64,000 bases of DNA from an uncultured Chloroflexia bacterium (GCA_963719465.1 OY970386.1:1369471-1433470), one strand, 5' to 3'; positions 11,793 through 42,358 are shown, counted from the stretch's first letter. The notes: generated by a model not told the origin, from the letters alone. Numbers and translations are program-made.

Positions 11793-12211
11793 TCGCGAGT
11801 CTAACCGCTCCTGATGTTAGGCTCAACCCGTGGGCTCTATCCATAATACCACGGAGGGCGCCGGTTGCGGGGAGCTCCGCCACTTCTCGTCGAAAACCCG
11901 GTGGCGAAGGGCTGGAGATGAGCTTGGCGGACGTGGCGAAGGCGCTGGATGACTGAAGAATCGACAAGAATAGCAGAAGACGGCCGGGGGAGCCTGGCCG
12001 CCTTCCGCCAATCCAGACCGCCTCTGGCACCCTCAAACCACAGACGGCTTTCAAATATTGGGTAGGAGGTTCGCCTGTATTGTCTCTCTCAGATGTTGTG
12101 CGCCTATAGCTGCCAAGTTAACAATCGGTAAAACGTGCAAAATCTGAACGACTTTCTTGACCCTCCTTTCCGGCCGCCCCTTGTGATTCAGCCGGCTCGG
12201 TTGATCGCCCT

Positions 12212-13238
12212 TGTAGGGTTTCAGGAGATGTGAGACAGAAGGGAGGTGAATAACGTCGGGCCTGGGCTGTAGGCTAACGGAAAACGAAGCCCAATAACCT
12301 ACAGGAGGCCCGACATGCACAAAGCTCGCACACCCTGGCCCATCCAGACAAGAGCCGCCTACATCGCTGCGTTCGAGGAGGCGCGTCGGCAGTATCCCAG
12401 GCTCAGCGCCCGCATCTTTTGCCAGGCGGGAGAGGTGCCCCATTCGACCTTCTCTCGCTGGTGGGCGGCCTGGCGACGCCACGACAGGAGAGCGCTATCA
12501 GACCGCTCCCGCAGGCCTCACCGCTCGCCTACGGCCCTTTCAGGGCATGTTCTAGACATCATCCGCGGCGCCCATCGTAAATTCGGCTTCGGAGTAAAGA
12601 GGCTCCACGCGTATCTGACAAAGGCCGGGCTGATTACCTGCAGCGTTTCCAGTGTCTACAGAGTTCTCCGTCGCGCCGGCGCCCTCCTTGCCTGTCCCCG
12701 TAAACCTAAGCGTCTCTGGCTGCACTACGCCAAAGCTTCCCCCGGTGATCGGGCTCAGATGGACCTGCTCTATCTGCCGGAGGGTCGCTACCAACTGACC
12801 CTGGTCGACGATTGCAGCCGCGTTCTTGCCGCAACGGTTCTTTCCAGGCGCACCTGCGCCGCTGTCTGCAAAGCCCTGCCGTGCCTCCTGGAGACCATCC
12901 CGTTCGCAATTCGCTGCCTCCAGACTGATAACGGCCCTGAATTCTCAGGCGACCTCACTGCCCTTCTGAGGCGAAGAGGCATTCGCCACGTCCGGATCAG
13001 ACCCAGGACGCCTCATCTCAATGGCAAGGTGGAGAGAGTGCAGAGGACGATGCGAGAGGAGTTCTGGGATGGCGTTCTGGCGGGAACGGTCTTGGAGTGG
13101 GAGAAGGGGTTGCAGGCGTATGTGCGCTTCTACAACAAGAAACGGCTGCACAGTGCTCTTGGCTACAGCGCGCCGCTCGTGTACGCTCAGGAGCGTCTAC
13201 CTCAGGCCCGGATCTACCACATCTCCTGAAACCCTACA
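12212..13238 (+). mobile_element. IS481-family insertion sequence, copy 1 (1027 bp)
   Basis: 21-bp terminal inverted repeats TGTAGGGTTTCAGGAGATGTG (12212-12232; reverse complement at 13218-13238), flanked by a 15-16 bp direct repeat TCGGTTGATCGCCCT(T) at 12197-12211 and 13239-13254. Confidence 0.9.
12315..13229 (+). CDS. IS481-family transposase (DDE integrase core)
   Basis: 304 aa; identical to the 41.3-kb copy through residue ~300 (the last residues differ after a 1-nt difference); N-terminal HTH plus an rve-like core. Confidence 0.9.
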   Translation: MHKARTPWPIQTRAAYIAAFEEARRQYPRLSARIFCQAGEVPHSTFSRWWAAWRRHDRRALSDRSRRPHRSPTALSGHVLDIIRGAHRKFGFGVKRLHAYLTKAGLITCSVSSVYRVLRRAGALLACPRKPKRLWLHYAKASPGDRAQMDLLYLPEGRYQLTLVDDCSRVLAATVLSRRTCAAVCKALPCLLETIPFAIRCLQTDNGPEFSGDLTALLRRRGIRHVRIRPRTPHLNGKVERVQRTMREEFWDGVLAGTVLEWEKGLQAYVRFYNKKRLHSALGYSAPLVYAQERLPQARIYHIS

Positions 13239-13374
13239 TCGGTTGATCGCCCTTATGACGCATGGTAAACTGCCAGCAAGCGGCAGAGGCTGTCTGCCGT
13301 TTTGCTCTCATTGAGCAGGTGGACTCAGCAATTGTTGGAAGGGACGCCGCAGCATCAGGAGCGACGAATCTGCG

Positions 13375-13452
13375 GTGGGCGTAGCCGAGCGGTTTAAGGC
13401 GCCAGGTTGTGGCCCTGGAGATCGAGGGTTCGAATCCCTCCGTCCACCCCAG
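13375..13452 (+). tRNA. tRNA-His (anticodon GTG)
   Basis: Hand-folded cloverleaf: extra G-1 pairs with discriminator C73 (a His hallmark), anticodon loop TTGTGGC, T-loop TTCGAAT, CCA encoded. Confidence 0.85.
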
Positions 13453-13484
13453 TCTAACTGGCCGCGCGGCCCTTCAGGAGCCTT

Positions 13485-14429
13485 ATGATATTCAAGGCAG
13501 ATTCTCCACCGAAGCGCCTTCGACTCATTCTATCGACCGCGTTCCTGGGCCTCGCGATTGCCGGGGCGCTCGTCTGCGTGGCTTGCGGAGGCGGCGGCGG
13601 CTCGAACAGCAAGGCCCAGGCCATCATTCAGAAGTTCATCGAAGCCAGCCAGAGCCCGGACACGCAGAGCCAGGTGGTGCTGGGCAAGGTCCCGGATGAT
13701 TTCCCGGCCAACGTGCCTGTCTATCCCGGCTCTAGCCTTCTCGGGTCCGTCGTCACCACCGGCAGCGGCGGCAGCTTGAAGGCGGACAGTGTGCTGCGTG
13801 AGACGAGTGATGCGGTCGGCGACGTGTACGCGTTCTACGAGCAGGCGTTCGATACGTCGCCGTGGCAGATTCAGGCGTCGACGTCGCCGGGCAAGGTCGC
13901 GGCAATCCAGTACGGGAACACCGATGATCCTAACCTGGCCGGCACGCTGGTGATACAACCGGAAAGCAGCGGCGGGTCGGTCATTTATGTGTCGATTCAG
14001 ATGGCTGCCACCGAGACGCCGACAGCCGAACCCTTCACGCCGGCCCCGAGCAAGCCGCTGCCGCACGGCTGGCCGTCGCAGATTCCCATCTATCCGAACG
14101 CCACCATCGCCGATACGGCCTGGTCGCGCTCGAGCGGCAGCATGCAGTGGCAGATCTCGCTTCTCGCTGTCACAACGTCAAAGGACATGATCCAGTACTA
14201 TCGAACGCAACTATCGAACGTAGGCTTCACGGTGACGAGCCAGCCGGACCAGAACGGCGTATCGACTGCCTCGTTCCAGAATACGCTGGTGTCACCGCCC
14301 TGGAGCGGGACGGTAACGACGCAGACGTTCGCTCAAGACCCAACGTACGCGCAGGCGGTGATTCAGTTGCAGATCGGCTCCGGGACGCCTCAGCCAACGT
14401 CGCAGCCGTCAGGTACGGCGACTCCGTAG
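13485..14429 (+). CDS. hypothetical lipoprotein with two tandem homologous ~110-aa domains
   Basis: Signal peptide with lipobox LVCVAC; the two halves share P..P.YP..., D.Y.FY/YY and GT.V.Q motifs; Thr/Ser/Gln-rich. Confidence 0.6.
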   Translation: MIFKADSPPKRLRLILSTAFLGLAIAGALVCVACGGGGGSNSKAQAIIQKFIEASQSPDTQSQVVLGKVPDDFPANVPVYPGSSLLGSVVTTGSGGSLKADSVLRETSDAVGDVYAFYEQAFDTSPWQIQASTSPGKVAAIQYGNTDDPNLAGTLVIQPESSGGSVIYVSIQMAATETPTAEPFTPAPSKPLPHGWPSQIPIYPNATIADTAWSRSSGSMQWQISLLAVTTSKDMIQYYRTQLSNVGFTVTSQPDQNGVSTASFQNTLVSPPWSGTVTTQTFAQDPTYAQAVIQLQIGSGTPQPTSQPSGTATP

Positions 14430-14534
14430 GTGTCGCGAGAAGTGGACCTTTGCCTCGGCGCGATTGCTGTGTCAACTCGGTTGTTGGTGAGGTCGCGCTG
14501 TGATAGACTGGCGGAGCCGTCAGGGATTGGGCTC

Positions 14535-14610
14535 GCGCCTGTAGCTCAGCGGAAAGAGCATCGGTCTTCGGAACCGAGGGTCGGGGGTTCGAATCCCTCC
14601 AGGCGCGCCA
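14535..14610 (+). tRNA. tRNA-Arg (anticodon TCG)
   Basis: Hand-folded: acceptor GCGCCTG/CAGGCGC, D-arm TAGCTCAGCGG, anticodon loop CTTCGGA, T-loop TTCGAAT, discriminator G, CCA encoded. Confidence 0.8.
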
Positions 14611-14712
14611 GCAGCGCCGACGGGATGCGGGGCGTTTCGCCTCGCCGATTCATGTTAAGAGCGCGCAACTCTATACTCTTAGGGTCTTCAGCCGTAGAAT
14701 TGGGCTAGTCAG

Positions 14713-15477
14713 ATGTCTCAACTGGAAATCAACGACCTGTCAATCCGTTTCGGCGGCGTAGTGGCGCTGGACGGCGTATCCTTCCACGTGGAGGAAGGCG
14801 AGATCATGGGGCTTATCGGGCCGAACGGTGCCGGCAAGACGACGCTCTTCAATTGCATCACGCGCGTGTACGACGCTGACGGGGGTTCCATTCGCTTCGA
14901 GGGGCAGGAACTGCTCAAGATGCCGGCTTACAAGATCATCCGCACCGGCATTTCCAGGACTTTCCAGAACCTGGCGCTCTTCCCGTCGATGACCGTGCTC
15001 GAGAACTTGCTGGTTGGCCAGCACGTTCTGATGAAGAGCACAGTGGTCGATTGTCTGTTCCGGCTGCCCCAGGTGATGCGGGAAGAGAAGTTCGCCTTCA
15101 AGAGAGCGGAAGACGTGCTGAAGGTGCTGGGGTTCGAGGGGCTGCGCGACGTGCCGGTTGCCGGCCTTCCCTTCGCGGTGCGGAAAAGGGTCGAGCTGGC
15201 ACGCGCGCTGGTCTCGCGTCCGCGCTTCGTTTTGCTGGACGAGCCGGCGAGCGGCCTGAGCCACGAGGAGATGCAGGCGCTGGGCCGGCTGATTCGTTCG
15301 ATTCGCAGCGACCTCGGCGTCACGATCTTGCTGGTTGAGCACCACATGCAGCTCGTGATGGACGTTTCCGACAGGGTCTGCGTGCTCGACTTCGGCAGGA
15401 AGATTGCTGAGGCAACGCCCGCGGAGGTCCAAAAGGACCCGGCCGTAATCCGAGCTTATCTAGGGGAAGAGCACTAG
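14713..15477 (+). CDS. livG: branched-chain amino acid ABC transporter ATP-binding protein (LivG-like)
   Basis: Walker A GPNGAGKTT, ABC signature, LivG-specific insert. Confidence 0.85.
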   Translation: MSQLEINDLSIRFGGVVALDGVSFHVEEGEIMGLIGPNGAGKTTLFNCITRVYDADGGSIRFEGQELLKMPAYKIIRTGISRTFQNLALFPSMTVLENLLVGQHVLMKSTVVDCLFRLPQVMREEKFAFKRAEDVLKVLGFEGLRDVPVAGLPFAVRKRVELARALVSRPRFVLLDEPASGLSHEEMQALGRLIRSIRSDLGVTILLVEHHMQLVMDVSDRVCVLDFGRKIAEATPAEVQKDPAVIRAYLGEEH

Positions 15478-16184
15478 TGCTTGTAATTCGCGATATCTAC
15501 ACGGCGTACGGACCAATCATGGCCCTGCGGGGCGTCTCGCTGGAGGTGCCGGAAGGGGCGATAATCACGATTCTGGGCGGCAACGGCGCTGGCAAGAGCA
15601 CGACTCTGCGGACGATCTCGGGGCTGGTGCACCCGGTCAAGGGGCAGATCGAGTTTCTGGGGAAGCGCATCGAGAAGCTTTCGCCGGAGAAGATCGTCCA
15701 GATCGGCATATCGCAGGTGCCGGAAGGCAGGCAGATCTTTCCCGAGCTCACAGTCATGGAGAACCTGCGTCTCGGTGCTTACATTCGTCGAGATGGTCGC
15801 GCGGTTCGACGCGATATCGACCGGGTCTTCGAGTATTTTCCAGTGCTCAAGGAGCGCCAGAAGCAGGAGGCCGGCACGCTTAGCGGCGGCGAGCAGCAGA
15901 TGGTGGCGATCGGTCGAGCGCTGATGGCCAAACCGCGCATATTGCTTCTCGACGAGCCATCGCTTGGCCTTGCGCCGCTGGTGGTGCAGCAGATCTTCGG
16001 CATTATCAAGACGCTCAACGAGAACGAGGGCATCACGATCCTCCTGGTCGAGCAGAACGCGGGTTCGGCGCTGAAGATCGCGAAGCACGGGTACGTGCTG
16101 GAGATCGGCAGGGTGGTTCTGGAAGACACGGGCGAGAATCTGCGTAAGGACGAGGCCGTCCGCCGCTCCTACTTGGGGTATTAG
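15477..16184 (+). CDS. livF: branched-chain amino acid ABC transporter ATP-binding protein (LivF-like)
   Basis: Walker A GGNGAGKST, LSGGEQQM signature; start overlaps the livG stop. Confidence 0.85.
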   Translation: MLVIRDIYTAYGPIMALRGVSLEVPEGAIITILGGNGAGKSTTLRTISGLVHPVKGQIEFLGKRIEKLSPEKIVQIGISQVPEGRQIFPELTVMENLRLGAYIRRDGRAVRRDIDRVFEYFPVLKERQKQEAGTLSGGEQQMVAIGRALMAKPRILLLDEPSLGLAPLVVQQIFGIIKTLNENEGITILLVEQNAGSALKIAKHGYVLEIGRVVLEDTGENLRKDEAVRRSYLGY

Positions 16185-16202
16185 CGGCTCAGCGGCCGCT
16201 CG

Positions 16203-16229
16203 ACGCCCGTTCGGGCGCTCCCTTTTTCC
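16203..16229 (+). terminator. intrinsic terminator candidate after livF (GC hairpin CGCCCG-tt-CGGGCG followed by a T5 run)
   Basis: Seen directly in the sequence; preceded by the palindrome AGCGGCCGCT. Confidence 0.45.
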
Positions 16230-16254
16230 TCGAAGTTGCTTGATGGGATGAAGC

Positions 16255-16836
16255 ATGCGAATTGCCGTCCAAGAGCCGTCTCTTGCTTTCGCGCCGACTC
16301 GCCGACGGCTGTTGGCGCAGGCGCTGCTCATCCTCACCGGCGTGGTGCTGCTTTCGCTCTCGGCGCAGATCCGCATCCCGCTTCCGTTCACGCCGGTACC
16401 GGTGACCGGCCAGACCTTCGCGGCGCTGCTTGCCGGCGGATTGCTGGGCAGTCGTGCCGGCTTCACAAGCGTCGCCTGCTACTGGCTGGTGGGCGCCTGC
16501 GGGCTGCCTGTCTTCAACGGCTGGAGCGGCGGCTGGACGGTGGTCAGCGGACCGACCGGCGGCTACATTCTCGGCTTTGCCGGAGCGGCGCTGCTGGTGG
16601 GCTGGTTCCGCGATCGCGGCTGGCGAAGCGGCAGGCGGCTCATCGTATCGCTGCTTCTCGGCGAGGCGGCCATCTACGCCTTCGGACTGACGTGGCTCGC
16701 CTTCTTCGTCGGGCCGCGGGCAGTGGTGGCGATGGGGCTGCTTCCCTTCATCCCGGGCGACTGCATGAAGATTGCCGCGGCGGGGTTCGTTCTGCCGGCC
16801 GCATCGTCGCTCCTGGAGCGCGCGCATCTCTATTGA
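16255..16836 (+). CDS. bioY: biotin transporter BioY
   Basis: 193 aa, 5-6 TM segments, conserved BioY motif IPLPFTPVPVTGQTFAALL. Confidence 0.8.
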   Translation: MRIAVQEPSLAFAPTRRRLLAQALLILTGVVLLSLSAQIRIPLPFTPVPVTGQTFAALLAGGLLGSRAGFTSVACYWLVGACGLPVFNGWSGGWTVVSGPTGGYILGFAGAALLVGWFRDRGWRSGRRLIVSLLLGEAAIYAFGLTWLAFFVGPRAVVAMGLLPFIPGDCMKIAAAGFVLPAASSLLERAHLY

Positions 16837-16921
16837 CCCGGGTGTTGGGCGGAATCGTGCACGTCCTCTGGCAGTTCAGCGGGCGGATGTGAGACGATAG
16901 CTTGAAGGAGCAGGCAGGGAT

Positions 16922-17629
16922 ATGTTTGCTTTGGTTCTGGCGGGAGGGAAAGGCGAACGACTCCGTCCCCTGACCGCGGACCGCCCCAAGCCGATGGTCC
17001 TCCTCAACGAGAAGCCTATCCTGCAGCATCACCTGGAGTGGCTTGCCGGAAACGGCGTCACGGATGCTATCCTGCTTTGCGGCTACAAGCACGAGGCTAT
17101 CCAGCGCCACTTCGGCGACGGGAGCGCCCTCGGACTGCGCATCTCTTACTCGATTGAGGACTCGCCGCTGGGTCGCGGCGGCGCCTTTCGACGTGGCTTC
17201 GAGCAGGTACCGGTGAGTGAGAAGACGGTGATCGGCACGAACGGCGACAATATCGTCGAGCAGCCGCTGGCGCCGCTTCTGCGACGACACCGCCGGACAG
17301 GCGCCGTCGCCACGGTCATGCTCGCGCCGTTGCGCAGCCCCTACGGAATCGTCAGGCTAACGCGCGGCAGCCGCATCGCGGGCTTCGATGAGAAGCCGCT
17401 GCTGCCGCACTGGGTGAACGCCGGCGTCTACGCGTTGGAGCGGGAGTTCTTCGCGATGCTGCCGCAGATCGGCGACCACGAGACGACGGTCTTTCCCCAG
17501 CTCGCGGCGCAGAAGAAGCTGTTCGGCTTCAAGAGCAGGGCTTACTGGAAGCCGATCGACAACGTGAAGGACGTGAACGAGGCCGCCTCACATCTTGCCG
17601 GGAAGGACGGGGACGAGAATGGCCAGTGA
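16922..17629 (+). CDS. sugar-phosphate nucleotidyltransferase (mannose-1-P guanylyltransferase/NTP-transferase family)
   Basis: N-terminal LAGGKGERLRPLT motif with an NTP_transferase fold pattern. Confidence 0.75.
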   Translation: MFALVLAGGKGERLRPLTADRPKPMVLLNEKPILQHHLEWLAGNGVTDAILLCGYKHEAIQRHFGDGSALGLRISYSIEDSPLGRGGAFRRGFEQVPVSEKTVIGTNGDNIVEQPLAPLLRRHRRTGAVATVMLAPLRSPYGIVRLTRGSRIAGFDEKPLLPHWVNAGVYALEREFFAMLPQIGDHETTVFPQLAAQKKLFGFKSRAYWKPIDNVKDVNEAASHLAGKDGDENGQ

Positions 17630-19079
17630 GATCAAGTTCGGAACGGATGGCTGGCGGGCGATCATCGGCGACGACTTCACTTTCGAGAACGTGCGCGTCT
17701 GCGCCCAGAGCGTAGCGCGCTTTCTCAAGCAGAGCGGCATGGCGTCGCGCGGGCTGATCGTCGGCTACGACACGCGATTCGCTTCGGAGGACTTCGCGGC
17801 TGCGGTCGCGGAGGTTATCGCCGGCAATGGGATCAAGGCGTTCCTCTGCGACCGCGCGACGCCAACGCCAACGGTTAGCTGGGCGGTGCTGGATAAGCAG
17901 GCGGGCGGCGCGGCGATGATCACCTCCAGCCACAATCCCTGGCGCTACAACGGCTTCAAGTACAAGCCCGAATACGCCGGCAGCGCTTCGCCGGAGGTGG
18001 TGGCGCAGCTCGAGGCGCCGCTGGCGGAGATACAGAGATCGGGCGACGTCAAGCGGATGCCGCTGGCGGAAGCGCAGGCGCAGGGGCTGGTCGAGCTGTT
18101 CGATCCGCGGCCGGCCTACATAGCGCAGCTGAAGAAGCTCATCGACCTGGAGCCGCTGCGGTCGGCCAACTTCACCGTCTGCGTCGACGCGATGTACGGC
18201 AGCGGCCAGGGGTATTTGCCGGAGCTGCTTTCCGGCGGCCGCCTGCGGGTGATCGAGCTGCACGGCGTACACAACCCGCTCTTCCCGGGGATCGGCGCGC
18301 CGGAGCCGATCGGACGCAACCTGACCGGGCTGATGGAAGCGGTGCGGCAGGAGAAGGCCGACGTGGGGCTGGCGGTCGACGGTGACGCCGACCGCTTCGG
18401 GCTGGTGGACGAGAACGGCGTCTACGTTGACCAGCTACAGGTCTTTGGGCTGCTGACCTACTACCTGCTGGAGGCGCGCGGCGAGCGCGGGCCGATCATC
18501 AAGTCGCTGACAACGACGCGAATGGTCATGCGCCTCGGTGAGCTGTACAACGTGCCGGTCTACGAGACGGCGGTCGGCTTCAAGTACCTGGGGCCGAAGA
18601 TGATCGAGACGAACGGGCTGATCGGCGGCGAGGAGAGCGGCGGCTACGCGTTCCGCGGCCACCTGCCTGAGCGCGACGGCGTCCTGGCGGCGCTGGCGAT
18701 GCTCGACTTCATGGTGCGCACCGGCAAGCGCCCGTCGGAGCTGCTAGCGGAGCTTTACCGGCGCGTCGGGCCGCACTATTACGACCGAGTTGACATAAGG
18801 ATGCCGGCCACGGAAAAGCAGTCGGTGCAGACGCGGGTTGCAGCCGCCCGTCCGGAGGCGATCGCCGGGGTGAAGGTGACCGGCCAGGACGACACCGACG
18901 GCTATCGCTTCAACCTGGATAACGGCGGCTGGCTGCTGCTGCGCTTCTCCGGCACGGAGCCGCTGCTGCGCATCTACACCGAGGTGCCGGACAAGGGGCT
19001 CGTTCGAGGCCTGCTGAAGGCGGGTCGGGAGCTGGCCGGCCTGCCGGAGCAGGAGGTCGGGTTGGATGCACTGTCTTGA
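17619..19079 (+). CDS. phosphomannomutase/phosphoglucomutase (alpha-D-phosphohexomutase)
   Basis: Active-site serine loop TSSHNP, GTDGWR N-terminus, DGDADR Mg-binding loop; likely start MASEIKFGTDGWR at 17619 (the track ORF begins earlier at 17595). Confidence 0.85.
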   Translation: MASEIKFGTDGWRAIIGDDFTFENVRVCAQSVARFLKQSGMASRGLIVGYDTRFASEDFAAAVAEVIAGNGIKAFLCDRATPTPTVSWAVLDKQAGGAAMITSSHNPWRYNGFKYKPEYAGSASPEVVAQLEAPLAEIQRSGDVKRMPLAEAQAQGLVELFDPRPAYIAQLKKLIDLEPLRSANFTVCVDAMYGSGQGYLPELLSGGRLRVIELHGVHNPLFPGIGAPEPIGRNLTGLMEAVRQEKADVGLAVDGDADRFGLVDENGVYVDQLQVFGLLTYYLLEARGERGPIIKSLTTTRMVMRLGELYNVPVYETAVGFKYLGPKMIETNGLIGGEESGGYAFRGHLPERDGVLAALAMLDFMVRTGKRPSELLAELYRRVGPHYYDRVDIRMPATEKQSVQTRVAAARPEAIAGVKVTGQDDTDGYRFNLDNGGWLLLRFSGTEPLLRIYTEVPDKGLVRGLLKAGRELAGLPEQEVGLDALS

Positions 19080-34937: not shown

Positions 34938-34946
34938 GGCTAGCTC

Positions 34947-35774: not shown

Positions 35775-35804
35775 CGAATCTGCCTCGTGTCATGGTTGCT
35801 GTCA

Positions 35805-36101: not shown

Positions 36102-36957
36102 CTGTCGCCTCCGATTCGCCTGCGGTCTTTCGACGCCTGCGCGTCGCGGGCCTCTCGGCTGGCGCTTCCGTCGCTGGCTTGCGCCGTCGTCGAGCGGCCG
36201 GCTTTTCGGCTACCGCTGTTTCGACGGGTGCGGCAACTGCGACGCGGCGCCGCGTCCGCCCGGGGGCGGACGGAGCCCGTTCTGCGGCGGGCTCTGGCCC
36301 CGCCGCCAGCGGGGCCCGGCGCCGCACGGCGCGTTCGCCTCCCCACAGGCGCTCCGCCTGGCGCACCGCGCCCACCGTCATCAGCAGGTCCCGGTGCGAC
36401 AGCATGTCTCCCACGTTCAAATACGGCGCCGGCAACACGTCCACCTTTTGAAGGTTGTGGGCGCTCACCTTGACGCCGTTGTCGGAGTTCTCGGTTACGA
36501 CGAGGGTCGAACGGTCCAATCCCAGCGCCTGGAGAACGGCGGCCATGTCCTTCGTGCGCGGCGGCTCGAAGGTCAACGCGTCGAGGACTCGCAGCGATCC
36601 TTCCGCGACCTTGGTCGACAGCACCGACCGGATAGCCAGACGACGCATTCGCTTCGGCAGCCGCTGGTCAAAGCTCCGCGGCTTTGGGCCGAAGACGATA
36701 CCCCCGTGTCGGATGGCGGGTGAGCGCGCGGCCCCGAGACGGGCGCGGCCGATTCCTTTTTGCCGTCGAATCTTCGCTGTGCTGCCAGCGACCTCTCCGC
36801 GCGTCTTCGAGTTCGCCGTGCCGGTGCGTCGGTTCGCGAGCTGGGCCAGGAGCGCCTGATGGATGACGGGCTGGTTTGGCTCGATTCCGAATACGGCGGC
36901 ATCCGCCTCGATTGAGTCGACCTCTTTGCCTTCCCGGTTGACAACTTCCAGCTTCAT
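36094..36957 (-). CDS. rplD: 50S ribosomal protein L4 with a ~80-aa basic Ala/Pro/Arg-rich C-terminal extension
   Basis: Canonical L4 core (~205 aa), then a tail rich in RRRRK/PATEAPAERPATRRRRK repeats. Confidence 0.9.
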   Translation of the reverse strand: MKLEVVNREGKEVDSIEADAAVFGIEPNQPVIHQALLAQLANRRTGTANSKTRGEVAGSTAKIRRQKGIGRARLGAARSPAIRHGGIVFGPKPRSFDQRLPKRMRRLAIRSVLSTKVAEGSLRVLDALTFEPPRTKDMAAVLQALGLDRSTLVVTENSDNGVKVSAHNLQKVDVLPAPYLNVGDMLSHRDLLMTVGAVRQAERLWGGERAVRRRAPLAAGPEPAAERAPSAPGRTRRRVAVAAPVETAVAEKPAARRRRKPATEAPAERPATRRRRKTAGESEATDA

Positions 36958-36981
36958 CGCTCGTTTCTCAAATACTCGCGC

Positions 36982-37641
36982 CTATTGCGCTTTGGCCGCC
37001 GCCTTGGCGCGGGCGCGTTCCGTCTTCGCCGCCAGCCGGATGCGCAGGAGCCCGTTCTTCCCGCCGGGCACCGCGCCTTCGATAAAGAGCAGCCCCTTGG
37101 CCGGATCGCTTTCCACGATACGCAGATTGCGCACCGTGATGCGGGCGTCGCCCAGGTGGCCCGCCATATGCAGTCCCTTGCGCACGTGCCCCGGCGAGTT
37201 TCCCGGCCCGATGGAGCCTGGCGCTCGCGTCCGGTCCGACTGACCGTGGGTGCGCGGTCCGCCGCGGAACCCCCAGCGCCTGACGCCGCCGGCGAAACCG
37301 CGCCCTTTGGAGACGCCGGTCACGTCAACGTGGTCGCCGGTCTGGAAGAGCTCCGCGCCCACCTTTTGTCCCGCCTTCCACTGCGACGGGTCGTCAACCT
37401 TCACCTCGCGCAAGTGGCGGAACTCGCCCAGGCCGCGGAAATGACCTTTCATCGGCTGGTTGACTCGTTTAACGGTGCCCAAGCCCAACTGGACGGCAGC
37501 GTAGCCGTCGCTTTTCGCCGACTTGACCTGGACGACCGTGCAGGGGCCGGCCTCGACGACGGTTACGCCGTGGACTTCGCCCTTCTCGTCGAAGAGCTGA
37601 GTCATGCCGATCTTTCTGCCGATTATTCCTTCGATATCCAT
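36982..37641 (-). CDS. rplC: 50S ribosomal protein L3
   Basis: 219 aa, canonical. Confidence 0.95.
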   Translation of the reverse strand: MDIEGIIGRKIGMTQLFDEKGEVHGVTVVEAGPCTVVQVKSAKSDGYAAVQLGLGTVKRVNQPMKGHFRGLGEFRHLREVKVDDPSQWKAGQKVGAELFQTGDHVDVTGVSKGRGFAGGVRRWGFRGGPRTHGQSDRTRAPGSIGPGNSPGHVRKGLHMAGHLGDARITVRNLRIVESDPAKGLLFIEGAVPGGKNGLLRIRLAAKTERARAKAAAKAQ

Positions 37642-37952
37642 TACAGCTTGATCTCGATGTCCACGCCGGCGGGAAGTTGCAGTCGCATTAGCGTATCCAC
37701 CGTCTTCGCCGTCGGTTCCAGGATGTCTATCAATCGCTTATGAGTCCGAATCTCGAACTGCTCCCGCGAGTCCTTGTCGATGACCGGAGAGCGAATTACC
37801 GTGAACTTCTTGATTTCTGTGGGCAGCGGGATGGGGCCGGCCACGGCGGCGCCCGTCCGCTCTGCTGCCTCCACAATCTGGCTTGCGGACTGATCGAGGA
37901 GCCGGTGGTCGTAGCCCTTCAGCCTGATCCGTATCTTTTGCCTTGAAACCAT
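37641..37952 (-). CDS. rpsJ: 30S ribosomal protein S10
   Basis: 103 aa, canonical. Confidence 0.95.
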
Positions 37953-37997
37953 GTTAAGCTGCCCCGTCCACTAGAACCTGACGATCTTCGGACCCCT

Positions 37998-40086
37998 TTA
38001 AGCCCTCGCCGGCCGCCTGGCGCGAACGCCGAGCTTTTCGACGACCGCGGGCGGCACCTCTTCGTAATGGTCGAACTCCATGTTGTGGCTTGCTCGTCCC
38101 TGCGAAAGCGACCTCAACTCTGTTGCGTAGCCAAATGTCTCTGCTAGCGGCACCAGCGCACGCACAACCTGCAGGCCGCCGCGCGACTCGACGCCAATGA
38201 CGTGACCGCGACGGCCATTGACATCGGCGAGAATATCGCCGAAGAAATCCTCCGGCGTCAGCACTTCGACTTTCATGATCGGTTCCAGGAGAACGGCATC
38301 GCCATGCTCGAGCGCCTTTCGCATGCCCATCGAGCCGGCCATGCGGAACGAAAGCTCCGACGAGTCAACCTCGTGGTAGGCGCCGTCGACCAGCGCTACT
38401 CTGACGTCAATGACGGGGTAGCTGGCGACCGGGCCGTTCTCCAGCGCCTCGTTGACGCCGGCGCGGACCGCAGAAATGAACTCGCGCGGGACTACGCCGC
38501 CGACCGTTTTGTCGACGAACTCGAAGCCGGCGCCGCGCTCTCTCGGCTCGACCTCCAGCCAGACGTCGCCGTACTGACCTCGGCCGCCGGTCTGCCGTAC
38601 GAAACGTCCCTCGGCGCGGGTGGCGGACCGGATCGTCTCCTTGTATGCGACCTCCGGCTTGCCGACATTGGCGTCGACGCGGAACTCGCGAAGCATGCGG
38701 TCGACGATCACCTCCAGGTGCAACTCGCCCATGCCGGAGATGATGGTCTGGCCGGTATCAGCGTCGTAGCGCGTGCGGAAAGTGGGGTCTTCCTCCGCCA
38801 GGCGGTTCAACGTCTCGCCCATCCGGTCCTGGTCGTCCTTCGTCTTCGGTTCGATGGCGACGGACAGAACCGGCTCCGGAAAGCGGATCGACTCCAGCAC
38901 TATTGGGTGAGCGCGGTCGCACAGAGTGTCGCCGGTGAACGTATTCTTCAGGCCAACTGCGGCGACGATGCCGCCGGCGTGCACCTCGTCGACCTCTTCG
39001 CGGCGGTTGGCGTGCATGCGCAGGATGCGGCCGAATCGTTCCCTCTCGTTGCGGGCGGCGTTCAGAATAGTTGCGCCGACCTTTACCTGGCCGCTGTAGA
39101 CGCGGAAGTAGGCAAGCCGCCCAACATACGGGTCGGCGACGATCTTGAAGGCCAGAGCCGTGAACGGCTCGTTGTCGTCTGCTTTTCGTTGGACTGTCTG
39201 ATTGTTCTTGGGGTTGATTCCGGTCACCGGGGGGACGTTCTACGGGAGCCGGGAGGTAGTCGACGACTGCGTTCAGGAGAGGCTGGACGCCCTTGTTTCG
39301 CAGGGCGGAGCCGCACATTACCGGCGTAATTGCGCCAGCCAGCGTGGCGCGCCTGACCGCCTTCTTCAACTCCAGCGTCGTCAGCCGGTGTCCCTCGACG
39401 TAGCTGATCATCGCCTGGTCGTCCACTTCCGCGAGGGTCTCGGTGAGGCGCTCACGGTAGGGGGCGCACTTCTCGGCCAACTCGTCGCTAAGGGGCAGCA
39501 CGTCGGGGTTCTCGTGGCTTTCCGGCGGGAAGTACCAGGCCTTCTCCTCGACCAGGTCCACCACACCCTCGAAGCCTGCCTCGACGCCTATCGGCACCTG
39601 TATGGCTACCGGCCGCGCGCCCAGGCGCTGCTTCACCATCTCGATGGTGTTCCAGAAGTCCGCGCCGATGCGGTCCATCTTGTTAACGAAGCAGATCCGC
39701 GGCACGCTGTAGCGGTCCGCCTGCCGCCAGACCGTCTCCGACTGGGGCTCGACGCCGGCGACGGCGTCGAAGACGACCACGCCGCCGTCGAGGACGCGCA
39801 GGCTGCGCTCCACCTCGACGGTGAAGTCCACGTGGCCCGGCGTGTCGATGATGTTGATCTGATGGTCGAGCCATTCGCAGGTGGTAGCGGCGGCGGTTAT
39901 GGTGATGCCGCGCTCGCGCTCCTGGGCCATCCAGTCCATTACCGCCGTGCCCTCGTGCACCTCGCCCATCTTGTAGGTGCGGCCGGTGTAAAAGAGGATG
40001 CGCTCAGTGACCGTAGTCTTGCCGGCGTCAATATGGGCAATGATGCCTATGTTGCGTAAGCGCTCGATAGGAAACTGCCTGGCCAT
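37998..40086 (-). CDS. fusA: elongation factor G, with an apparent +1 frameshift at the G6 run 39229-39234
   Basis: The G domain ([25 protein letters not shown]...DYLPAPVE) reads in the frame of track ORF 38758-40128. Domains II-V ([10 protein letters not shown]...[12 protein letters not shown]...) read in the frame of ORF 37998-39227. Removing one G/C from the 6-mer rejoins them as ...[17 protein letters not shown]...; total ~695 aa. Confidence 0.85.
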
Positions 40087-40177
40087 GATTTCTATCCCCC
40101 GCGAACGGGGCTTTGTCGATACGATCAATGTTCTACGTATTGCCTTCGGTTAGAGCGGCGACGCGCGCCGCTCGCGA

Positions 40178-40648
40178 TTACCAGCGATAGTGGACGAAGG
40201 CGCGGTTGGCCTCCGCCATCCTGTGCGTGTCTTCACGCTTCTTGACAGTTGCGCCCTGACCAGAGGCGGCGTCGGCAAGCTCAGCGGCCAGTTTCTCCGC
40301 CATCGAATGCCCCTTGCGGGCGCGGGCGGAAGCGATGAGCCAGCGCATTGCCAGCGTGGCGCGCCTTTCGGGGCGGATGTCCACCGGCACCTGATACGTC
40401 GCGCCGCCTACGCGCCGCGGCTTCACCTCAACGACCGGCGTCACGTTTCGCAGCGCCTGTTGGAACGTGTCGATGGGGTTTCGGCGGTTCTGCGCCTCTA
40501 GCAGCTCCAGCGACTTGTAGACGACGCGTTCCGCCGTGCTCTTTTTGCCGCTATACATGATGCGGTTGATGAAGCGCGAGAGGTCTTCGCTCTGGTACTT
40601 GGCGTCCGGCGCTATGATGCGTTTGACAACTTTGGCCCGCCTTGGCAT
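40178..40648 (-). CDS. rpsG: 30S ribosomal protein S7
   Basis: Canonical S7 from MPRRAKVVKRIIAPD (156 aa); the track ORF is over-extended upstream. Confidence 0.9.
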   Translation of the reverse strand: MPRRAKVVKRIIAPDAKYQSEDLSRFINRIMYSGKKSTAERVVYKSLELLEAQNRRNPIDTFQQALRNVTPVVEVKPRRVGGATYQVPVDIRPERRATLAMRWLIASARARKGHSMAEKLAAELADAASGQGATVKKREDTHRMAEANRAFVHYRW

Positions 40649-40667
40649 GTTCCGCTCTCTCCGCTGT

Positions 40668-41093
40668 CTACTTCGACTTGGCGCCGGCTTTGCGCGTCCC
40701 GTACTTGCTGCGACCACGATTGCGGCCGTCGACGCCCTGCGCGTCAAGGGCGCCGCGAATGACGTGATAGCGCACACCCGGCAGGTCTTTGACGCGTCCG
40801 CCGCGGATGAGCACGACCGAGTGCTCCTGGAGGCTGTGCCCTTCGCCGGGAATGTACGCCGTCACCTCGATGCCGTTCGTGAGCCGCACGCGGGCAATCT
40901 TCCGCAGAGCGGAATTCGGCTTCTTCGGCGTCATGGTGCGTACCTGAGTGCAGACGCCGCGCTTTTGCGGCGAGCCTTCGCCGCGCTCGGTCCGGTTCTT
41001 AAGGGCGTTGTAGGTAAAACGCAGAGCGGGCGCCTTCGTCTTCTTGACGAGCTTCTTGCGTCCTTTGCGCACTAATTGGCTTATGGTGGGCAC
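40668..41093 (-). CDS. rpsL: 30S ribosomal protein S12 (GTG start)
   Basis: Canonical S12 from (V)[14 protein letters not shown]; the upstream part of track ORF 40668-41198 is leader, not coding. Confidence 0.9.
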
Positions 41094-41261
41094 GCGCTTA
41101 CCTCTCTCAGGAATCTTGGACTGGCCTGCTCTCAGACAACAAAAAGGCCGAAAACCTGATTCTGAGCCAGTACAGCGTGAAGCGCCGTGGCGCTTCACTA
41201 TCGCTGACCGTAGTCAATTCGAGGTCTTTCGACCTTGCTTTGCTCTGTCGCTCAGCGCCAA

Positions 41262-41298
41262 ACACATACTTTACGTGATATGGCGCAAGAGTGTCAAG
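41262..41298 (-). promoter_or_regulatory. str-operon promoter candidate: consensus -35 TTGACA (plus 41292-41297) - 18 nt - TAAAGT (-10, plus 41268-41273), ~170-nt leader to rpsL
   Basis: Hexamers read on the minus strand; the -35 lies inside the IS copy-2 target duplication. Confidence 0.4.
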
Positions 41299-42224
41299 CA
41301 GTGTAGGGTTTCAGGAGATGTGGTAATCCGGGCCTGAGGTAGACGCTCCTGAGCGTACACGAGCGGCGCGCTGTAGCCAAGAGCACTGTGCAGCCGTTTC
41401 TTGTTGTAGAAGCGCACATACGCCTGCAACCCCTTCTCCCACTCCAAGACCGTTCCCGCCAGAACGCCATCCCAGAACTCCTCTCGCATCGTCCTCTGCA
41501 CTCTCTCCACCTTGCCATTGAGATGAGGCGTCCTGGGTCTGATCCGGACGTGGCGAATGCCTCTTCGCCTCAGAAGGGCAGTGAGGTCGCCTGAGAATTC
41601 AGGGCCGTTATCAGTCTGGAGGCAGCGAATTGCGAACGGGATGGTCTCCAGGAGGCACGGCAGGGCTTTGCAGACAGCGGCGCAGGTGCGCCTGGAAAGA
41701 ACCGTTGCGGCAAGAACGCGGCTGCAATCGTCGACCAGGGTCAGTTGGTAGCGACCCTCCGGCAGATAGAGCAGGTCCATCTGAGCCCGATCACCGGGGG
41801 AAGCTTTGGCGTAGTGCAGCCAGAGACGCTTAGGTTTACGGGGACAGGCAAGGAGGGCGCCGGCGCGACGGAGAACTCTGTAGACACTGGAAACGCTGCA
41901 GGTAATCAGCCCGGCCTTTGTCAGATACGCGTGGAGCCTCTTTACTCCGAAGCCGAATTTACGATGGGCGCCGCGGATGATGTCTAGAACATGCCCTGAA
42001 AGGGCCGTAGGCGAGCGGTGAGGCCTGCGGGAGCGGTCTGATAGCGCTCTCCTGTCGTGGCGTCGCCAGGCCGCCCACCAGCGAGAGAAGGTCGAATGGG
42101 GCACCTCTCCCGCCTGGCAAAAGATGCGGGCGCTGAGCCTGGGATACTGCCGACGCGCCTCCTCGAACGCAGCGATGTAGGCGGCTCTTGTCTGGATGGG
42201 CCAGGGTGTGCGAGCTTTGTGCAT
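41271..42224 (-). CDS. IS481-family transposase, copy 2; a 1-nt difference near the 3' end lets the ORF read through the right IR into flanking DNA
   Basis: 317 aa, identical to copy 1 through ...ERLPQARI, then diverges. Copy 2 has GGATTACC where copy 1 has GGATCTACC. Confidence 0.85.
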   Translation of the reverse strand: MHKARTPWPIQTRAAYIAAFEEARRQYPRLSARIFCQAGEVPHSTFSRWWAAWRRHDRRALSDRSRRPHRSPTALSGHVLDIIRGAHRKFGFGVKRLHAYLTKAGLITCSVSSVYRVLRRAGALLACPRKPKRLWLHYAKASPGDRAQMDLLYLPEGRYQLTLVDDCSRVLAATVLSRRTCAAVCKALPCLLETIPFAIRCLQTDNGPEFSGDLTALLRRRGIRHVRIRPRTPHLNGKVERVQRTMREEFWDGVLAGTVLEWEKGLQAYVRFYNKKRLHSALGYSAPLVYAQERLPQARITTSPETLHCLTLLRHIT

Positions 42225-42327
42225 GTCGGGCCTCCTGTAGGTTATTGGGCTTCGTTTTCCGTTAGCCTACAGCCCAGGCCCGACGTTATTCACCTCCCTT
42301 CTGTCTCACATCTCCTGAAACCCTACA
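41302..42327 (-). mobile_element. IS481-family insertion sequence, copy 2 (1026 bp), inverted relative to copy 1
   Basis: Same 21-bp terminal IRs (41302-41322 and 42307-42327), flanked by a 16-bp direct repeat CAAGAGTGTCAAGCAG at 41286-41301 and 42328-42343. Confidence 0.9.
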
Positions 42328-42358
42328 CAAGAGTGTCAAGCAGATGGCGAAATGGCCG

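What the first reader, a model, noticed from the sequence alone, without database searches (positions are those of the whole stretch)
12197..42343. Two identical IS481-family copies in inverted orientation bracket the entire 28-kb ribosomal-protein/str/S10/spc/alpha region
IS copy 1 (12212-13238, transposase on +) and copy 2 (41302-42327, transposase on -) share identical 21-bp IRs and transposase sequence through residue ~300, so the transpositions were recent. Each copy is flanked by its own matched target-site duplication (15-16 bp TCGGTTGATCGCCCT(T); 16 bp CAAGAGTGTCAAGCAG). A past inversion between the copies would have left each IS with one half of each duplication; both being matched argues for two independent insertions and no inversion yet. 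The pair is nonetheless a ready substrate for homologous-recombination inversion of a segment holding ~30 ribosomal-protein genes, fusA, rpoA and secY, which would flip their orientation relative to replication. Formally it also resembles a very large composite transposon.
Basis: seen in the sequence. Interest (0 to 1): 0.6.

Follow-up and report, generated by a model that had tools for sequence, protein, structure and literature searches.

The report
Promoter-seeking insertion sequences flank ribosomal genes
Two fresh copies of a small jumping gene sit in opposite orientation on either side of the main ribosomal-protein gene cluster, and each landed exactly on a promoter's -35 box, a site this family of jumping genes targets consistently and leaves working by duplicating the box.

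Summary
Two 1,027/1,026-bp IS481-like elements (12212-13238 +, 41302-42327 -) differ by one base. Both have perfect 21-bp inverted repeats. Each has its own target duplication, of 15 and 16 bp.

IS-free Dehalococcoidia relatives carry each target once and are colinear across both junctions. The copies are therefore two independent recent insertions, and the 28-kb segment has not inverted.

One is TTGACA-N18-TAAAGT of the str operon. The other is TTGATC-N17-TAAACT of tRNA-His.

Across 57 unique element ends from the window, one MAG and 61 metagenome contigs, TTG lies exactly 4 nt from the end in 26 (background 1%, P=3e-36). A -10 box is in register in 19 of those 26. Eight paired insertions give 15- or 16-bp duplications.

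Distant Clostridia-type relatives make 25-26-bp duplications that end 4 nt upstream of a -35.

So this is an integrase-type transposase lineage that targets sigma-70-type promoters. Such targeting is documented for Mutator-like TnGBS/ISLre2/ISKra4 elements. I found no report of it for IS481.

The inverted pair remains a plausible, unused substrate for inversion. The composite-transposon reading is not supported.

The parts
12212..13238 (+). IS copy 1 (1,027 bp, canonical sequence)
   Evidence: Identical to independent Logan unitigs L001-L003, which end at the inverted repeats.
41302..42327 (-). IS copy 2 (1,026 bp; 1-bp deletion at GGAT-TACC near the right end)
12212..12232 (+). IRL of copy 1, TGTAGGGTTTCAGGAGATGTG
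   Evidence: The same 21-mer occurs at all ends and in the 81%-identical relative L004/L015.
13218..13238 (-). IRR of copy 1 (perfect inverted copy of IRL)
42307..42327 (-). IRL of copy 2
41302..41322 (+). IRR of copy 2
12315..13229 (+). Transposase, 304 aa. It has an N-terminal HTH/leucine-zipper region and an rve-type DDE core (D150, D205, E240).
   Evidence: Pfam rve, rve_3, HTH_32. NCBIfam IS481 199.6 bits. The catalytic residues are invariant in 40 homologues. The AlphaFold model matches IstA and retroviral integrases.
41271..42224 (-). Transposase of copy 2, 317 aa. It reads through the right inverted repeat into the flank because of the 1-bp deletion.
   Evidence: P0001.
12255..12314 (+). 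Leader hairpin that pairs the Shine-Dalgarno GGAGG just before the transposase ATG. It probably blocks translation of read-in transcripts.
   Evidence: -34.9 kcal/mol, z = -3.45.
12197..12211 (+). Target duplication 1, upstream copy (TCGGTTGATCGCCCT)
13239..13253 (+). Target duplication 1, promoter-side copy. It contains the -35 TTGATC at 13243-13248.
   Evidence: The sequence is single-copy in relatives L151/L152.
13243..13271 (+). Predicted tRNA-His promoter TTGATC-N17-TAAACT, with TGg (extended -10) before the -10 box
   Evidence: The block is conserved in L151, L152 and L093. At 8 of 12 matches it is below the threshold of the consensus scan.
13375..13451 (+). tRNA-His(GTG), the first gene downstream of copy 1
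42328..42343 (-). Target duplication 2, upstream copy (CTGCTTGACACTCTTG), 15 nt after the yqeY stop codon
41286..41301 (-). Target duplication 2, promoter-side copy. It contains the -35 TTGACA at 41297-41292.
41268..41297 (-). str-operon promoter TTGACA-N18-TAAAGT
   Evidence: Found by the consensus scan, 10 of 12 matches. It lies in a 45-nt block identical in four IS-free relatives while the flanks diverge.
40668..41096 (-). rpsL (S12), first gene of the str operon, about 170 nt downstream of the promoter
20222..41096 (-). Cluster of 30 ribosomal-protein genes with fusA, rpoA, secY, adk, map, infA and truA (str-S10-spc-alpha, then L13-S9)
   Evidence: Pfam scans. L36, L30 and S14 were read from translations.
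13485..20130 (+). Non-ribosomal part of the bracketed segment: AF_1845-like protein, tRNA-Arg, two ABC ATPases, BioY, NTP-transferase, PGM, PGI

Best explanation
The two elements are recent, independent insertions of one active IS481-like insertion sequence whose integrase-type DDE transposase targets sigma-70-type (sigmaA) promoters.

Shown: the element joins its ends to target DNA 4 nt upstream of the -35 hexamer on one strand and 15-16 nt further downstream on the other. Repair of that stagger duplicates the -35 box. One copy of the box stays joined to its own spacer and -10 box, so the promoter survives next to the element. The other copy is left on the far side.

In this genome the element hit two promoters of genes that are normally among the most highly expressed, tRNA-His and the str operon (rpsL-rpsG-fusA and onward). 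These promoters face each other across 28 kb. In both cases the right end of the element faces the promoter, so the two copies are inverted relative to each other.

Inferred: the transpososome is recruited by, or reads the DNA shape of, promoter DNA bound by RNA polymerase holoenzyme. It does not simply read a sequence word. Also inferred: insertion is nearly neutral, which explains how an IS can sit directly in front of an essential operon.

As a by-product, the two 1-kb identical inverted copies are a substrate for RecA-dependent inversion of the segment. That inversion has not happened here. It would keep each promoter attached to its genes and change only their orientation.
For: Structure and duplications.

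Empty sites: four IS-free relatives carry GCTTGACACTCTTGCGCCATATCACGTAAAGT... once between yqeY and rpsL. L151 and L152 carry GTTGATC...GTGGTAAACT once upstream of tRNA-His.

Register of the -35 box: of 57 unique element ends, 26 have TTG at outward offset 4-6. No other offset from 0 to 29 has more than 2. Background is 1.05%, P=3e-36.

The -10 box: it is present at 16-18 nt spacing in 19 of those 26 ends, against 3.7% background, P=3e-22. It is also in register in 7 of the 31 ends that lack TTG, against 0.2% background, P=4e-13. This argues that the promoter is recognised as a unit.

The other side of the duplication: 16 further ends show the reverse-complement hexamer at offset 5 or 6, as expected for the second copy of the duplication.

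Paired insertions: eight independent pairs give 15 bp (five) or 16 bp (three).

Recurrent targets: the tRNA-His promoter is hit independently in another organism at the same register (L093). One promoter is hit in both orientations in related strains (L096 and L112).

Wider clade: 7 of 8 left ends of Clostridia-type relatives have a promoter matching at least 9 of 12 consensus positions at offset 30-31. No other offset has one. The 25-26-bp duplications end 4 nt before the -35.

Orientation rule: this element has perfect inverted repeats and uses both orientations (23 left ends and 10 right ends face the promoter). The Clostridia-type relatives have asymmetric repeats and use mostly one. The same rule is published for TnGBS/ISLre2/ISKra4 (PMC3942029).

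No inversion: the duplications are matched, both junctions are syntenic with relatives, and GC3 skew is continuous.

Transposase: DD(35)E residues are invariant and the fold is integrase-like.
Against: No experiment or transcription-start data support the promoter calls; they are consensus matches plus conservation. The tRNA-His promoter matches only 8 of 12 consensus positions and fails the scan threshold.

Most metagenome flanks come from one family of sediment samples, so the insertions are not fully independent phylogenetically, although identical flanks were merged.

Eight of the 57 ends fit neither side of the pattern. One 67%-identical relative sits inside a GmrSD gene with a 5-bp duplication beside a TTGACC that has no -10 box. 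That case fits direct reading of a -35-like word better than polymerase guidance.

No domain resembling sigma region 4 or any known polymerase-binding module was found in the transposase.

Selection against insertions inside genes could inflate the share of true promoters among surviving copies.

The source genome has a third copy that I could not retrieve. The short flank I could deduce from its read-through protein does not show the motif.
Confidence: 0.8

Rival explanations
1. The transposase itself reads a -35-like DNA word (TTGAC) or its local shape, with no role for RNA polymerase. Real promoters are over-represented only because insertions at TTGAC words inside genes are removed by selection.
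For: TTG is by far the most conserved feature of the target. L153, a 67%-identical relative, lies beside TTGACC inside a gene with no -10 box. No polymerase-interaction domain was recognised.
Against: The -10 box is in register in 7 of 31 ends that lack TTG (P=4e-13). Given TTG, it is present in 73% of ends against 3.7% background. The target logo is the sigma-70 consensus with its 16-18 nt spacing, not some other word. Two clades with different end sequences and different duplication lengths share the same anchor point relative to the promoter.
Confidence: 0.3
2. The promoter association is an accident of survivorship. The element inserts more or less at random, and only copies in harmless intergenic spots, often near promoters, persist.
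For: IS elements in general survive best in intergenic DNA. The sampled copies are all fixed or abundant enough to have been assembled.
Against: Selection cannot produce a single-nucleotide register: 26 ends have TTG at offset 4 and no other offset has more than 2. Insertions 5-20 nt further upstream would be at least as harmless, yet they are not seen.
Confidence: 0.03
3. The 30-kb unit (IS - ribosomal cluster - IS) is, or arose as, a composite transposon.
For: Two identical copies with identical terminal repeats bracket the segment.
Against: Each copy has its own duplication, and the sequences outside the two outer ends differ, so nothing duplicates around the whole unit. Both junctions and the interior are in the ancestral order seen in IS-free relatives. 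The interior is core and essential.
Confidence: 0.02
4. The segment has already inverted, once and back or an even number of times, or it exists as a mixed population of both isomers that the assembly collapsed into one.
For: 1 kb of perfect inverted homology 28 kb apart is ample for RecA. In another organism one copy of this IS family (L117) has flanks that are halves of two different promoter duplications, the signature of recombination between copies.
Against: The duplications are matched, synteny is ancestral and GC3 skew is continuous. No read-level data are available to me.
Confidence: 0.1

Closest known systems
IS481 family, the ~15-bp-duplication subgroup (e.g. ISMac4, ISA0963-1; eukaryotic IS481EU)
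   Same: About 1 kb long. One unframeshifted ORF encodes an HTH plus rve DD(35)E transposase. The ends are TGT...ACA. The duplications are 15-16 bp. Duplication lengths across relatives fall in discrete classes (about 5, 15-16 and 25-26 bp), as described for IS481EU and IS1202 (PMC10045372). The IS481 model is the best NCBIfam hit.
   Different: The score is below NCBIfam's curated cut-off (199.6 against 224). The closest sequence in 185,579 species genomes is 81% identical (a Dehalococcoidia MAG), and the rest are at most 38% identical. I found no IS481 member reported to target promoters; classical IS481 prefers NCTAGN and makes 6-bp duplications (the latter point from my own knowledge).
TnGBS conjugative elements, the ISLre2 family and the ISKra4 group (prokaryotic Mutator-like DDE transposases; Brochet 2009, Guerillot 2014, PMC3942029)
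   Same: [quoted passage not shown] The promoter is left intact. Elements with perfect terminal repeats insert in both orientations and those with asymmetric repeats in one. The published proposal is recruitment by the transcription-initiation complex, by analogy with Ty3.
   Different: The transposase superfamily is unrelated (Mutator-like, not integrase/rve). Those elements insert 13-17 bp upstream of the -35 box. Here the element end is 4 nt from the -35, and the duplication contains the -35 plus 5-6 nt of spacer, so one strand is cut inside the core promoter.
Ty3 and Ty1 LTR retrotransposons of yeast (integrase tethered to the Pol III machinery)
   Same: An rve-type integrase places the element at a precise position relative to a transcription-initiation site, upstream of tRNA genes among others. 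This avoids coding DNA.
   Different: These are eukaryotic and use an RNA intermediate. The tethering factors (TFIIIB, the AC40 subunit) are known experimentally. For the bacterial element the tether is only inferred.
IS1202 family, ISAba32 subgroup (targets dif/pdif sites; PMC10132070)
   Same: Distantly related rve-type transposase with TGT ends. The family shows the same three duplication-length classes, and one subgroup has a precise protein-bound DNA target and a fixed orientation.
   Different: The target is the XerC/D site, not promoters. The transposases are larger (394-507 aa) and the elements are 1.3-2.3 kb.

Membership tests
IS481 family | Single ORF, with no programmed frameshift, encoding an rve-type DDE transposase with DD(35)E spacing | tested here: met
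   One 304-aa ORF spans the HTH and catalytic parts. Pfam finds rve and rve_3. D150, D205 and E240 are invariant in 40 homologues. The fold matches IstA and retroviral integrases.
IS481 family | Score at or above the curated cut-off of NCBIfam NF033577 (transpos_IS481) | tested here: not met
   The score is 199.6 bits against a cut-off of 224. It is still the top hit by 100 bits over IS3 (99.5). I therefore call the element IS481-like.
IS481 family | N-terminal leucine-zipper/HTH region of the IS481 type (Pfam PF13011) | tested here: inconclusive
   The full protein scores 19.8 bits, below the 22.2 cut-off. The N-terminal 141 aa alone score 23.0 bits, above it.
IS481 family | Terminal inverted repeats beginning 5'-TGT and ending ACA-3'; length 0.95-1.3 kb | tested here: met
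   The ends read TGTAGGG...CCCTACA with 21-bp perfect repeats, and the element is 1,027 bp.
IS481 family | Target duplication in the family's range (mostly 6 bp; a subgroup near 15 bp, per PMC10045372) | tested here: met
   Eight independent paired insertions give 15 bp (five) or 16 bp (three).
Promoter-targeting Mutator-like elements (TnGBS / ISLre2 / ISKra4) | Mutator-like (p-MULT) DDE transposase | tested here: not met
   The transposase is rve/integrase-like. The element works like these elements but is not a member.
Promoter-targeting Mutator-like elements (TnGBS / ISLre2 / ISKra4) | Insertion 13-17 bp upstream of the -35 box of sigmaA promoters | tested here: not met
   The element end is 4 nt upstream of the -35 and the duplication includes the -35. 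In the Clostridia-type relatives the end is 30 nt upstream.
Promoter-targeting Mutator-like elements (TnGBS / ISLre2 / ISKra4) | Orientation set by repeat symmetry: perfect repeats give both orientations, asymmetric repeats give one | tested here: met
   With perfect repeats here, 23 left ends and 10 right ends face the promoter. With asymmetric repeats in the Clostridia-type relatives, 7 of 8 left ends and about 3 of 26 right ends face it.
Composite transposon | A single target duplication flanking the whole IS-cargo-IS unit, or evidence that the unit moved | tested here: not met
   Each IS has its own duplication, the outer flanks differ, and the interior and both junctions are ancestral.
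IS-mediated chromosomal inversion (already occurred) | Each IS carries one half of each duplication; synteny is broken at both junctions | tested here: not met
   The duplications are matched, gene order is colinear with IS-free relatives at both junctions, and GC3 skew is unchanged across the junctions.

The most novel reading that the evidence does not exclude
A widespread, mostly uncultured lineage of IS481-like elements, found in Dehalococcoidia/Chloroflexota and with distant relatives in gut Clostridia, uses a retroviral-integrase-type transposase that is guided to sigmaA promoters by promoter-bound RNA polymerase. One cut is always made 4 nt upstream of the -35 hexamer. The second cut lies about half, one and a half, or two and a half helical turns away, giving 5-, 15-16- or 25-26-bp duplications. 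This would be a second, independent origin of promoter-targeted transposition in bacteria. It would also be the closest prokaryotic counterpart of Ty3/Ty1 integrase tethering, and it appears not to have been described for IS481.
Probability: 0.4. Interest if true: 0.8.

Novelty: new variant of a known kind. Interest (0 to 1): 0.62.

Why it matters

The added result is more useful. It explains why an IS can sit immediately in front of tRNA-His and the essential str operon without harm: the element duplicates the -35 box and leaves a complete promoter behind.

It also shows that precise promoter targeting is not confined to Mutator-like elements (TnGBS, ISLre2, ISKra4), the only bacterial transposons for which I know it to be reported. 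It occurs in the integrase-like IS481/IS3 superfamily too.

That gives a compact bacterial system, a 304-aa protein with 21-bp ends, in which to ask how an integrase is tethered to a transcription-initiation complex. It gives a structural rationale for the puzzling discrete duplication lengths (about 5, 15 and 25 bp) of IS481/IS1202-type elements.

It also offers a practical by-product. Insertion sites of these elements mark real promoters, with their -35 and -10 boxes, in uncultured phyla where no transcription-start data exist.

Finally, copies with mismatched flanks in other genomes (L117) show that recombination between such promoter-anchored copies does happen. Because every copy carries a promoter at its edge, such events reshuffle whole transcription units without silencing them.

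Tried and rejected
(1) Fetching the source genome. Exact-protein look-ups for YqeY, S12, L14 and both long transposase variants returned nothing. The genome is known only as a 2,314,715-bp NCBI/ENA contig. I could not list all copies or see the third one.

(2) A hybrid promoter formed by the duplicated -35 and the IS end. No acceptable -10 box lies 16-18 nt into the inverted repeat (AGGAGA or GGAGAT), so I rejected this.

(3) Target mimicry of the abutted IS ends. In the Clostridia-type relatives the abutted ends do form TTGACA-N17-TACAAT. The ends of the window element contain nothing promoter-like, so this cannot be the general explanation.

(4) A sigma-region-4-like domain in the transposase. 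No Pfam hit appeared even at E=10, and there was no unusual domain in the model.

(5) Recent inversion. GC3 skew and synteny argue against it.

(6) Composite transposon. No outer duplication exists.

(7) Literature. Eight full-text searches found promoter targeting only for TnGBS/ISLre2/ISKra4, and ~15-bp duplications for part of IS481. None links IS481 to promoters. ISfinder and TnPedia notes are not searchable here, so prior mention there cannot be excluded.

(8) The consensus promoter scan did not call the tRNA-His promoter (8 of 12 matches). I rely on its conservation in three relatives instead.

Full report
**1. The observation**

Reading both regions and the repeat scan confirm two copies of one element. 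Copy 1 is 12212-13238 on the + strand and copy 2 is 41302-42327 on the - strand. They are 100% complementary over 1,002 nt.

A global alignment shows a single difference in the whole element. Copy 2 lacks one C in GGATCTACC, 23 nt from the right end. This extends its transposase ORF from 304 to 317 aa through the inverted repeat into the flank. All four ends carry the perfect 21-mer TGTAGGGTTTCAGGAGATGTG.

Copy 1 is flanked by TCGGTTGATCGCCCT (12197-12211 and 13239-13253). That is 15 bp, and the next base T is ambiguous because the element itself begins with T. Copy 2 is flanked by CTGCTTGACACTCTTG, 16 bp read on the - strand (42343-42328 and 41301-41286).

Three short-read unitigs from unrelated public runs carry the identical transposase. 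L001 spans the element exactly from end to end (1,028 bp), and L002 and L003 stop at its right-end repeat. All three have the copy-1 version of the indel site. So the flanks are not part of the element and copy 1 is the canonical sequence.

**2. What lies between the copies**

Pfam scans and translations of three short gaps give the following map.

- + strand, 13.4-20.1 kb: tRNA-His, an AF_1845-like protein, tRNA-Arg, two ABC ATPases, BioY, a nucleotidyl transferase, PGM and PGI.
- - strand, 20.2-41.1 kb: S9, L13, truA, L17, rpoA, S4, S11, S13, L36, IF-1, map, adk, secY, L15, L30, S5, L18, L6, S8, S14, L5, L24, L14, S17, L29, L16, S3, L22, S19, L2, L23, L4, L3, S10, fusA, S7, S12.

However, a quarter of the bracket is not ribosomal, there is no tuf, and rpsU lies just outside.

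**3. The element**

The 304-aa protein hits rve, rve_3 and HTH_32. In NCBIfam its best model is IS481 at 199.6 bits. That is well ahead of IS3 (99.5) but below the curated cut-off of 224.

D150, D205 and E240 are invariant in 40 homologues, giving DD(35)E spacing. An AlphaFold model (mean pLDDT 80) matches the IS21 transposase IstA and retroviral integrases.

The size, the single ORF, the TGT...ACA ends and the duplication length all fit IS481. Kojima (PMC10045372) notes that most IS481 members make 6-bp duplications but 'not a few' make about 15 bp. The same paper reports that IS481EU and IS1202 relatives show discrete classes near 5, 15 and 25 bp. I therefore call the element IS481-like.

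The source organism is a Dehalococcoidia-class bacterium. Its proteins are on record on a 2,314,715-bp contig, and the nearest YqeY homologues are named Dehalococcoidia. Among 185,579 species genomes, the only close relative of the transposase (81% identity) is in a Dehalococcoidia MAG.

**4. Empty sites and absence of inversion**

Relatives with 90%-identical YqeY have yqeY followed directly by rpsL, rpsG and an intact 695-aa fusA. I removed the IS and one copy of the duplication from the window and aligned the result with four such assemblies. The alignment is colinear. A 45-nt block, GCTTGACACTCTTGCGCCATATCACGTAAAGTATGTGTTTGGCGCTG, is identical in all of them while the surrounding sequence diverges.

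For the other site, L151 and L152 carry one copy of GTTGATC...GTGGTAAACTGCC upstream of tRNA-His.

Gene order across both junctions matches these IS-free relatives. On one side it is MiaB-like, PASTA protein, tRNA-His, AF_1845-like, ABC and onward. On the other it is purH, a 371-aa protein, a glycosyltransferase, yqeY, rpsL and onward. Third-codon-position GC skew has the same sign inside and outside the bracket on both coding strands.

Three lines of evidence therefore agree: matched duplications, ancestral synteny and continuous skew. The insertions were independent and the segment has not inverted.

**5. What the duplications are**

In the direction of the downstream genes both duplications read: 4 nt, then a -35-like hexamer, then 5-6 nt.

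- Copy 2: CTGC TTGACA CTCTTG, followed by a spacer and TAAAGT. The consensus scan reports TTGACA-N18-TAAAGT at 41297-41268, 10 of 12 matches, as the only promoter-like site in 2 kb. This lies inside the block conserved in relatives.
- Copy 1: TCGG TTGATC GCCCT, followed by TAAACT 17 nt after the hexamer and preceded by TGg. This matches 8 of 12 and is below the scan threshold. It is conserved in L151, L152 and L093.

**6. Is this a rule?**

I scanned the JGI metagenome collection for the 21-mer and found 61 contigs. With the window and the MAG this gives 57 unique element ends with usable flanks. The results are as follows.

- TTG occupies outward positions 4-6 in 26 of the 57. No other offset from 0 to 29 has more than 2. 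The background frequency is 1.05%, P=3e-36.
- A -10 hexamer matching at least 4 of 6 positions, 16-18 nt downstream, is present in 19 of those 26, against 3.7% after random TTG, P=3e-22.
- Among the 31 ends without TTG, 7 still have a -10 matching at least 5 of 6 in the same register, against 0.2% expected, P=4e-13.
- Sixteen further ends show the reverse-complement hexamer at offset 5 or 6, which is the other copy of the duplication.
- Pairing left and right flanks across contigs recovers eight independent insertions, five with 15-bp and three with 16-bp duplications. The 15/16 difference in the window is therefore a property of the element and not an assembly error.
- The position matrix of promoter-side flanks reads as TTGACA, 17 nt, TAtAAT, and little else.
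- In another organism the tRNA-His promoter carries a 38-bp solo-repeat remnant at the same register.
- One promoter appears with the element in both orientations in related strains (L096 and L112).

**7. The wider clade**

Distant relatives from Clostridia genomes (25-34% identity) have ends TGTAGGTATTACAATGATGTGT ... CATCATTGACAAACCTACA. They have 25-26-bp duplications.

Seven of eight left ends have a promoter matching at least 9 of 12 positions with its -35 at 30-31 nt from the end. No other offset has one. So the duplication ends 4 nt upstream of the -35. Right ends rarely show this.

A 67%-identical relative (L153) has a 5-bp duplication inside a GmrSD gene, next to TTGACC.

Two points follow. 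The cut 4 nt upstream of the -35 is shared by the 15-16-bp and 25-26-bp clades. The duplication classes differ by about one helical turn.

**8. Relation to what is known**

Precise insertion upstream of sigmaA promoters is established for TnGBS conjugative elements, the ISLre2 family and the ISKra4 group. These elements insert 13-17 bp upstream of the -35. Their authors proposed an interaction with the initiation complex by analogy with Ty3. They also showed that perfect terminal repeats allow both orientations, whereas asymmetric repeats fix one (PMC3942029).

The orientation rule holds here too. With perfect repeats, 23 left ends and 10 right ends face the promoter. With the asymmetric repeats of the Clostridia-type relatives, almost only left ends face it.

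Those published transposases are Mutator-like, whereas this one is integrase-like. The geometry also differs, because here one cut falls inside the core promoter and the -35 is duplicated. Eight literature searches found no report of promoter targeting by IS481-type elements. Curated ISfinder and TnPedia notes could not be searched.

**9. Mechanism**

Shown: the register, the duplication content, the conservation of both promoter boxes, the empty sites and the orientation rule.

Inferred: the promoter is recognised as a unit, most simply through promoter-bound RNA polymerase or the bend it induces at the upstream edge of the -35. My recollection, not tested here, is that polymerase-promoter complexes show nuclease hypersensitivity near -25, -38 and -48, which would match the cut positions.

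The main rival is direct reading of a TTGAC word plus selection. The L153 case favours it. The in-register -10 boxes at sites lacking TTG disfavour it.

I found no sigma-like or other extra domain in the protein. I found no hybrid promoter at the IS ends.

A stable leader hairpin pairs the ribosome-binding site just before the transposase start (z = -3.45). This would keep read-in transcription from driving transposase synthesis, which makes sense for an element that lives in promoters.

**10. The inverted pair**

The copies are inverted because the two targeted promoters converge and both happen to face the right end of the element. Homologous recombination could invert the 28 kb. Each promoter would stay with its genes.

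In another genome one copy (L117) has flanks that are halves of two different promoter duplications. That is the expected scar of such recombination.

Whether an inversion here would be harmful depends on replication direction, which 64 kb cannot settle. The + strand is G-rich at third codon positions on both coding strands. Under the usual rule the ribosomal cluster would then already be head-on to replication.

**11. Caveats on sequence quality**

Three genes that are intact in relatives are each split by a single-base frameshift: fusA at 39229-39245, rpoA near 23420, and a 371-aa gene at 44621-44640.

The source genome also holds three transposase variants (304, 317 and 318 aa). They differ only by indels at the same GGATCTACC site.

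These look like residual long-read errors, so the one-base difference between the two copies should not be over-read.

**12. Verdict**

The composite-transposon idea is not supported.

The more interesting result is that this IS481-like lineage targets sigma-70-type promoters. It preserves them by duplicating the -35 box. I rate this a new variant of a known kind.

Noticed in passing
window 39229-39245 (fusA), ~23415-23425 (rpoA), 44621-44640 (371-aa gene): Each gene is split by a single-base frameshift, while relatives have intact versions (695-aa EF-G and the 371-aa protein in L145). The likely cause is residual indel errors of a long-read assembly rather than pseudogenes.
   Followed up: partly
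window 13210-13218 and 41326-41333; protein P0123 from the source genome: The source genome encodes three transposase variants (304, 317 and 318 aa). They differ only by -1 or +1 indels at the same GGATCTACC site, which contains GATC. This could be a systematic base-calling error at a methylated motif or a real hotspot. The third copy lies outside the window and could not be fetched.
   Followed up: partly
window 12255-12314 (and 42284-42225 in copy 2): A stable hairpin in the transposase leader pairs the Shine-Dalgarno GGAGG immediately before the ATG (-34.9 kcal/mol, z = -3.45). It is conserved in the 81% relative. It probably blocks translation from read-in transcripts.
   Followed up: partly
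L117:1025-2049 (also L108:111-992): A complete IS copy whose two flanks do not match. One flank is the upstream half of one promoter duplication (ATCATTGACAGCGGC). The other is the promoter-side half of a different one (GCGCTCGACGCCTCT...GTAGAAT). This is the signature expected after recombination between two copies. L108 is also about 150 bp shorter than the full element.
   Followed up: partly
L093:3637-3674: A 38-bp solo inverted-repeat remnant (TGTAGGGTTTCAGGAGATGTGAGATACCTCCTGAAACC) sits 4 nt from the -35 of the homologous tRNA-His promoter in another organism. It is either an independent hit on the same promoter or a decayed copy.
   Followed up: partly
L025, L028, L029, L030, L038, L065, L068, L072, L074 (Clostridia-type relatives): The right end carries an outward TTGACA 8 nt from the tip and the left end carries TACAAT at nt 10-15. 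Directly abutted ends of a circular intermediate would therefore form TTGACA-N17-TACAAT. These elements make 25-26-bp duplications that end 4 nt upstream of a host -35.
   Followed up: partly
L153:1397-2427: A 67%-identical relative interrupts a GmrSD (type IV restriction) gene. It has only a 5-bp duplication (CCTGG) next to TTGACC and no -10 box. So the duplication length switches between close relatives, and not every insertion is at a promoter.
   Followed up: no
window 57275-57316 and 57670-57711: A 42-nt direct repeat (98% identical). One copy overlaps the 5' part of tRNA-Sec (57214-57311, - strand). This could be the remnant of an element integrated at the tRNA gene.
   Followed up: no
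window 11792-12196 compared with L151:1-1779 and L152:1678-2426: Relatives carry an aldehyde:ferredoxin oxidoreductase gene between the PASTA-domain gene and tRNA-His (full length in L151, fragments in L152). The window has none, so the gene was lost in this lineage next to the IS site.
   Followed up: no
window 1-64000 (GC3 skew by gene): The + strand is G-rich at third codon positions whichever strand is coding, while most genes, including the ribosomal cluster, are on the - strand. Under the usual rule the cluster would be head-on to replication. This cannot be decided without the origin and terminus.
   Followed up: partly
window 32340-32855 (S17), 20611-21333 (L13), 36094-36957 (L4): These ribosomal proteins have long C-terminal extensions beyond the Pfam domain: 171, 240 and 287 aa against the usual ~85, ~145 and ~205 (usual sizes from my own knowledge).
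   Followed up: no
window 2512-2627 (-): A SAM riboswitch (73.8 bits) lies upstream of the - strand genes at 567-2415.
   Followed up: no
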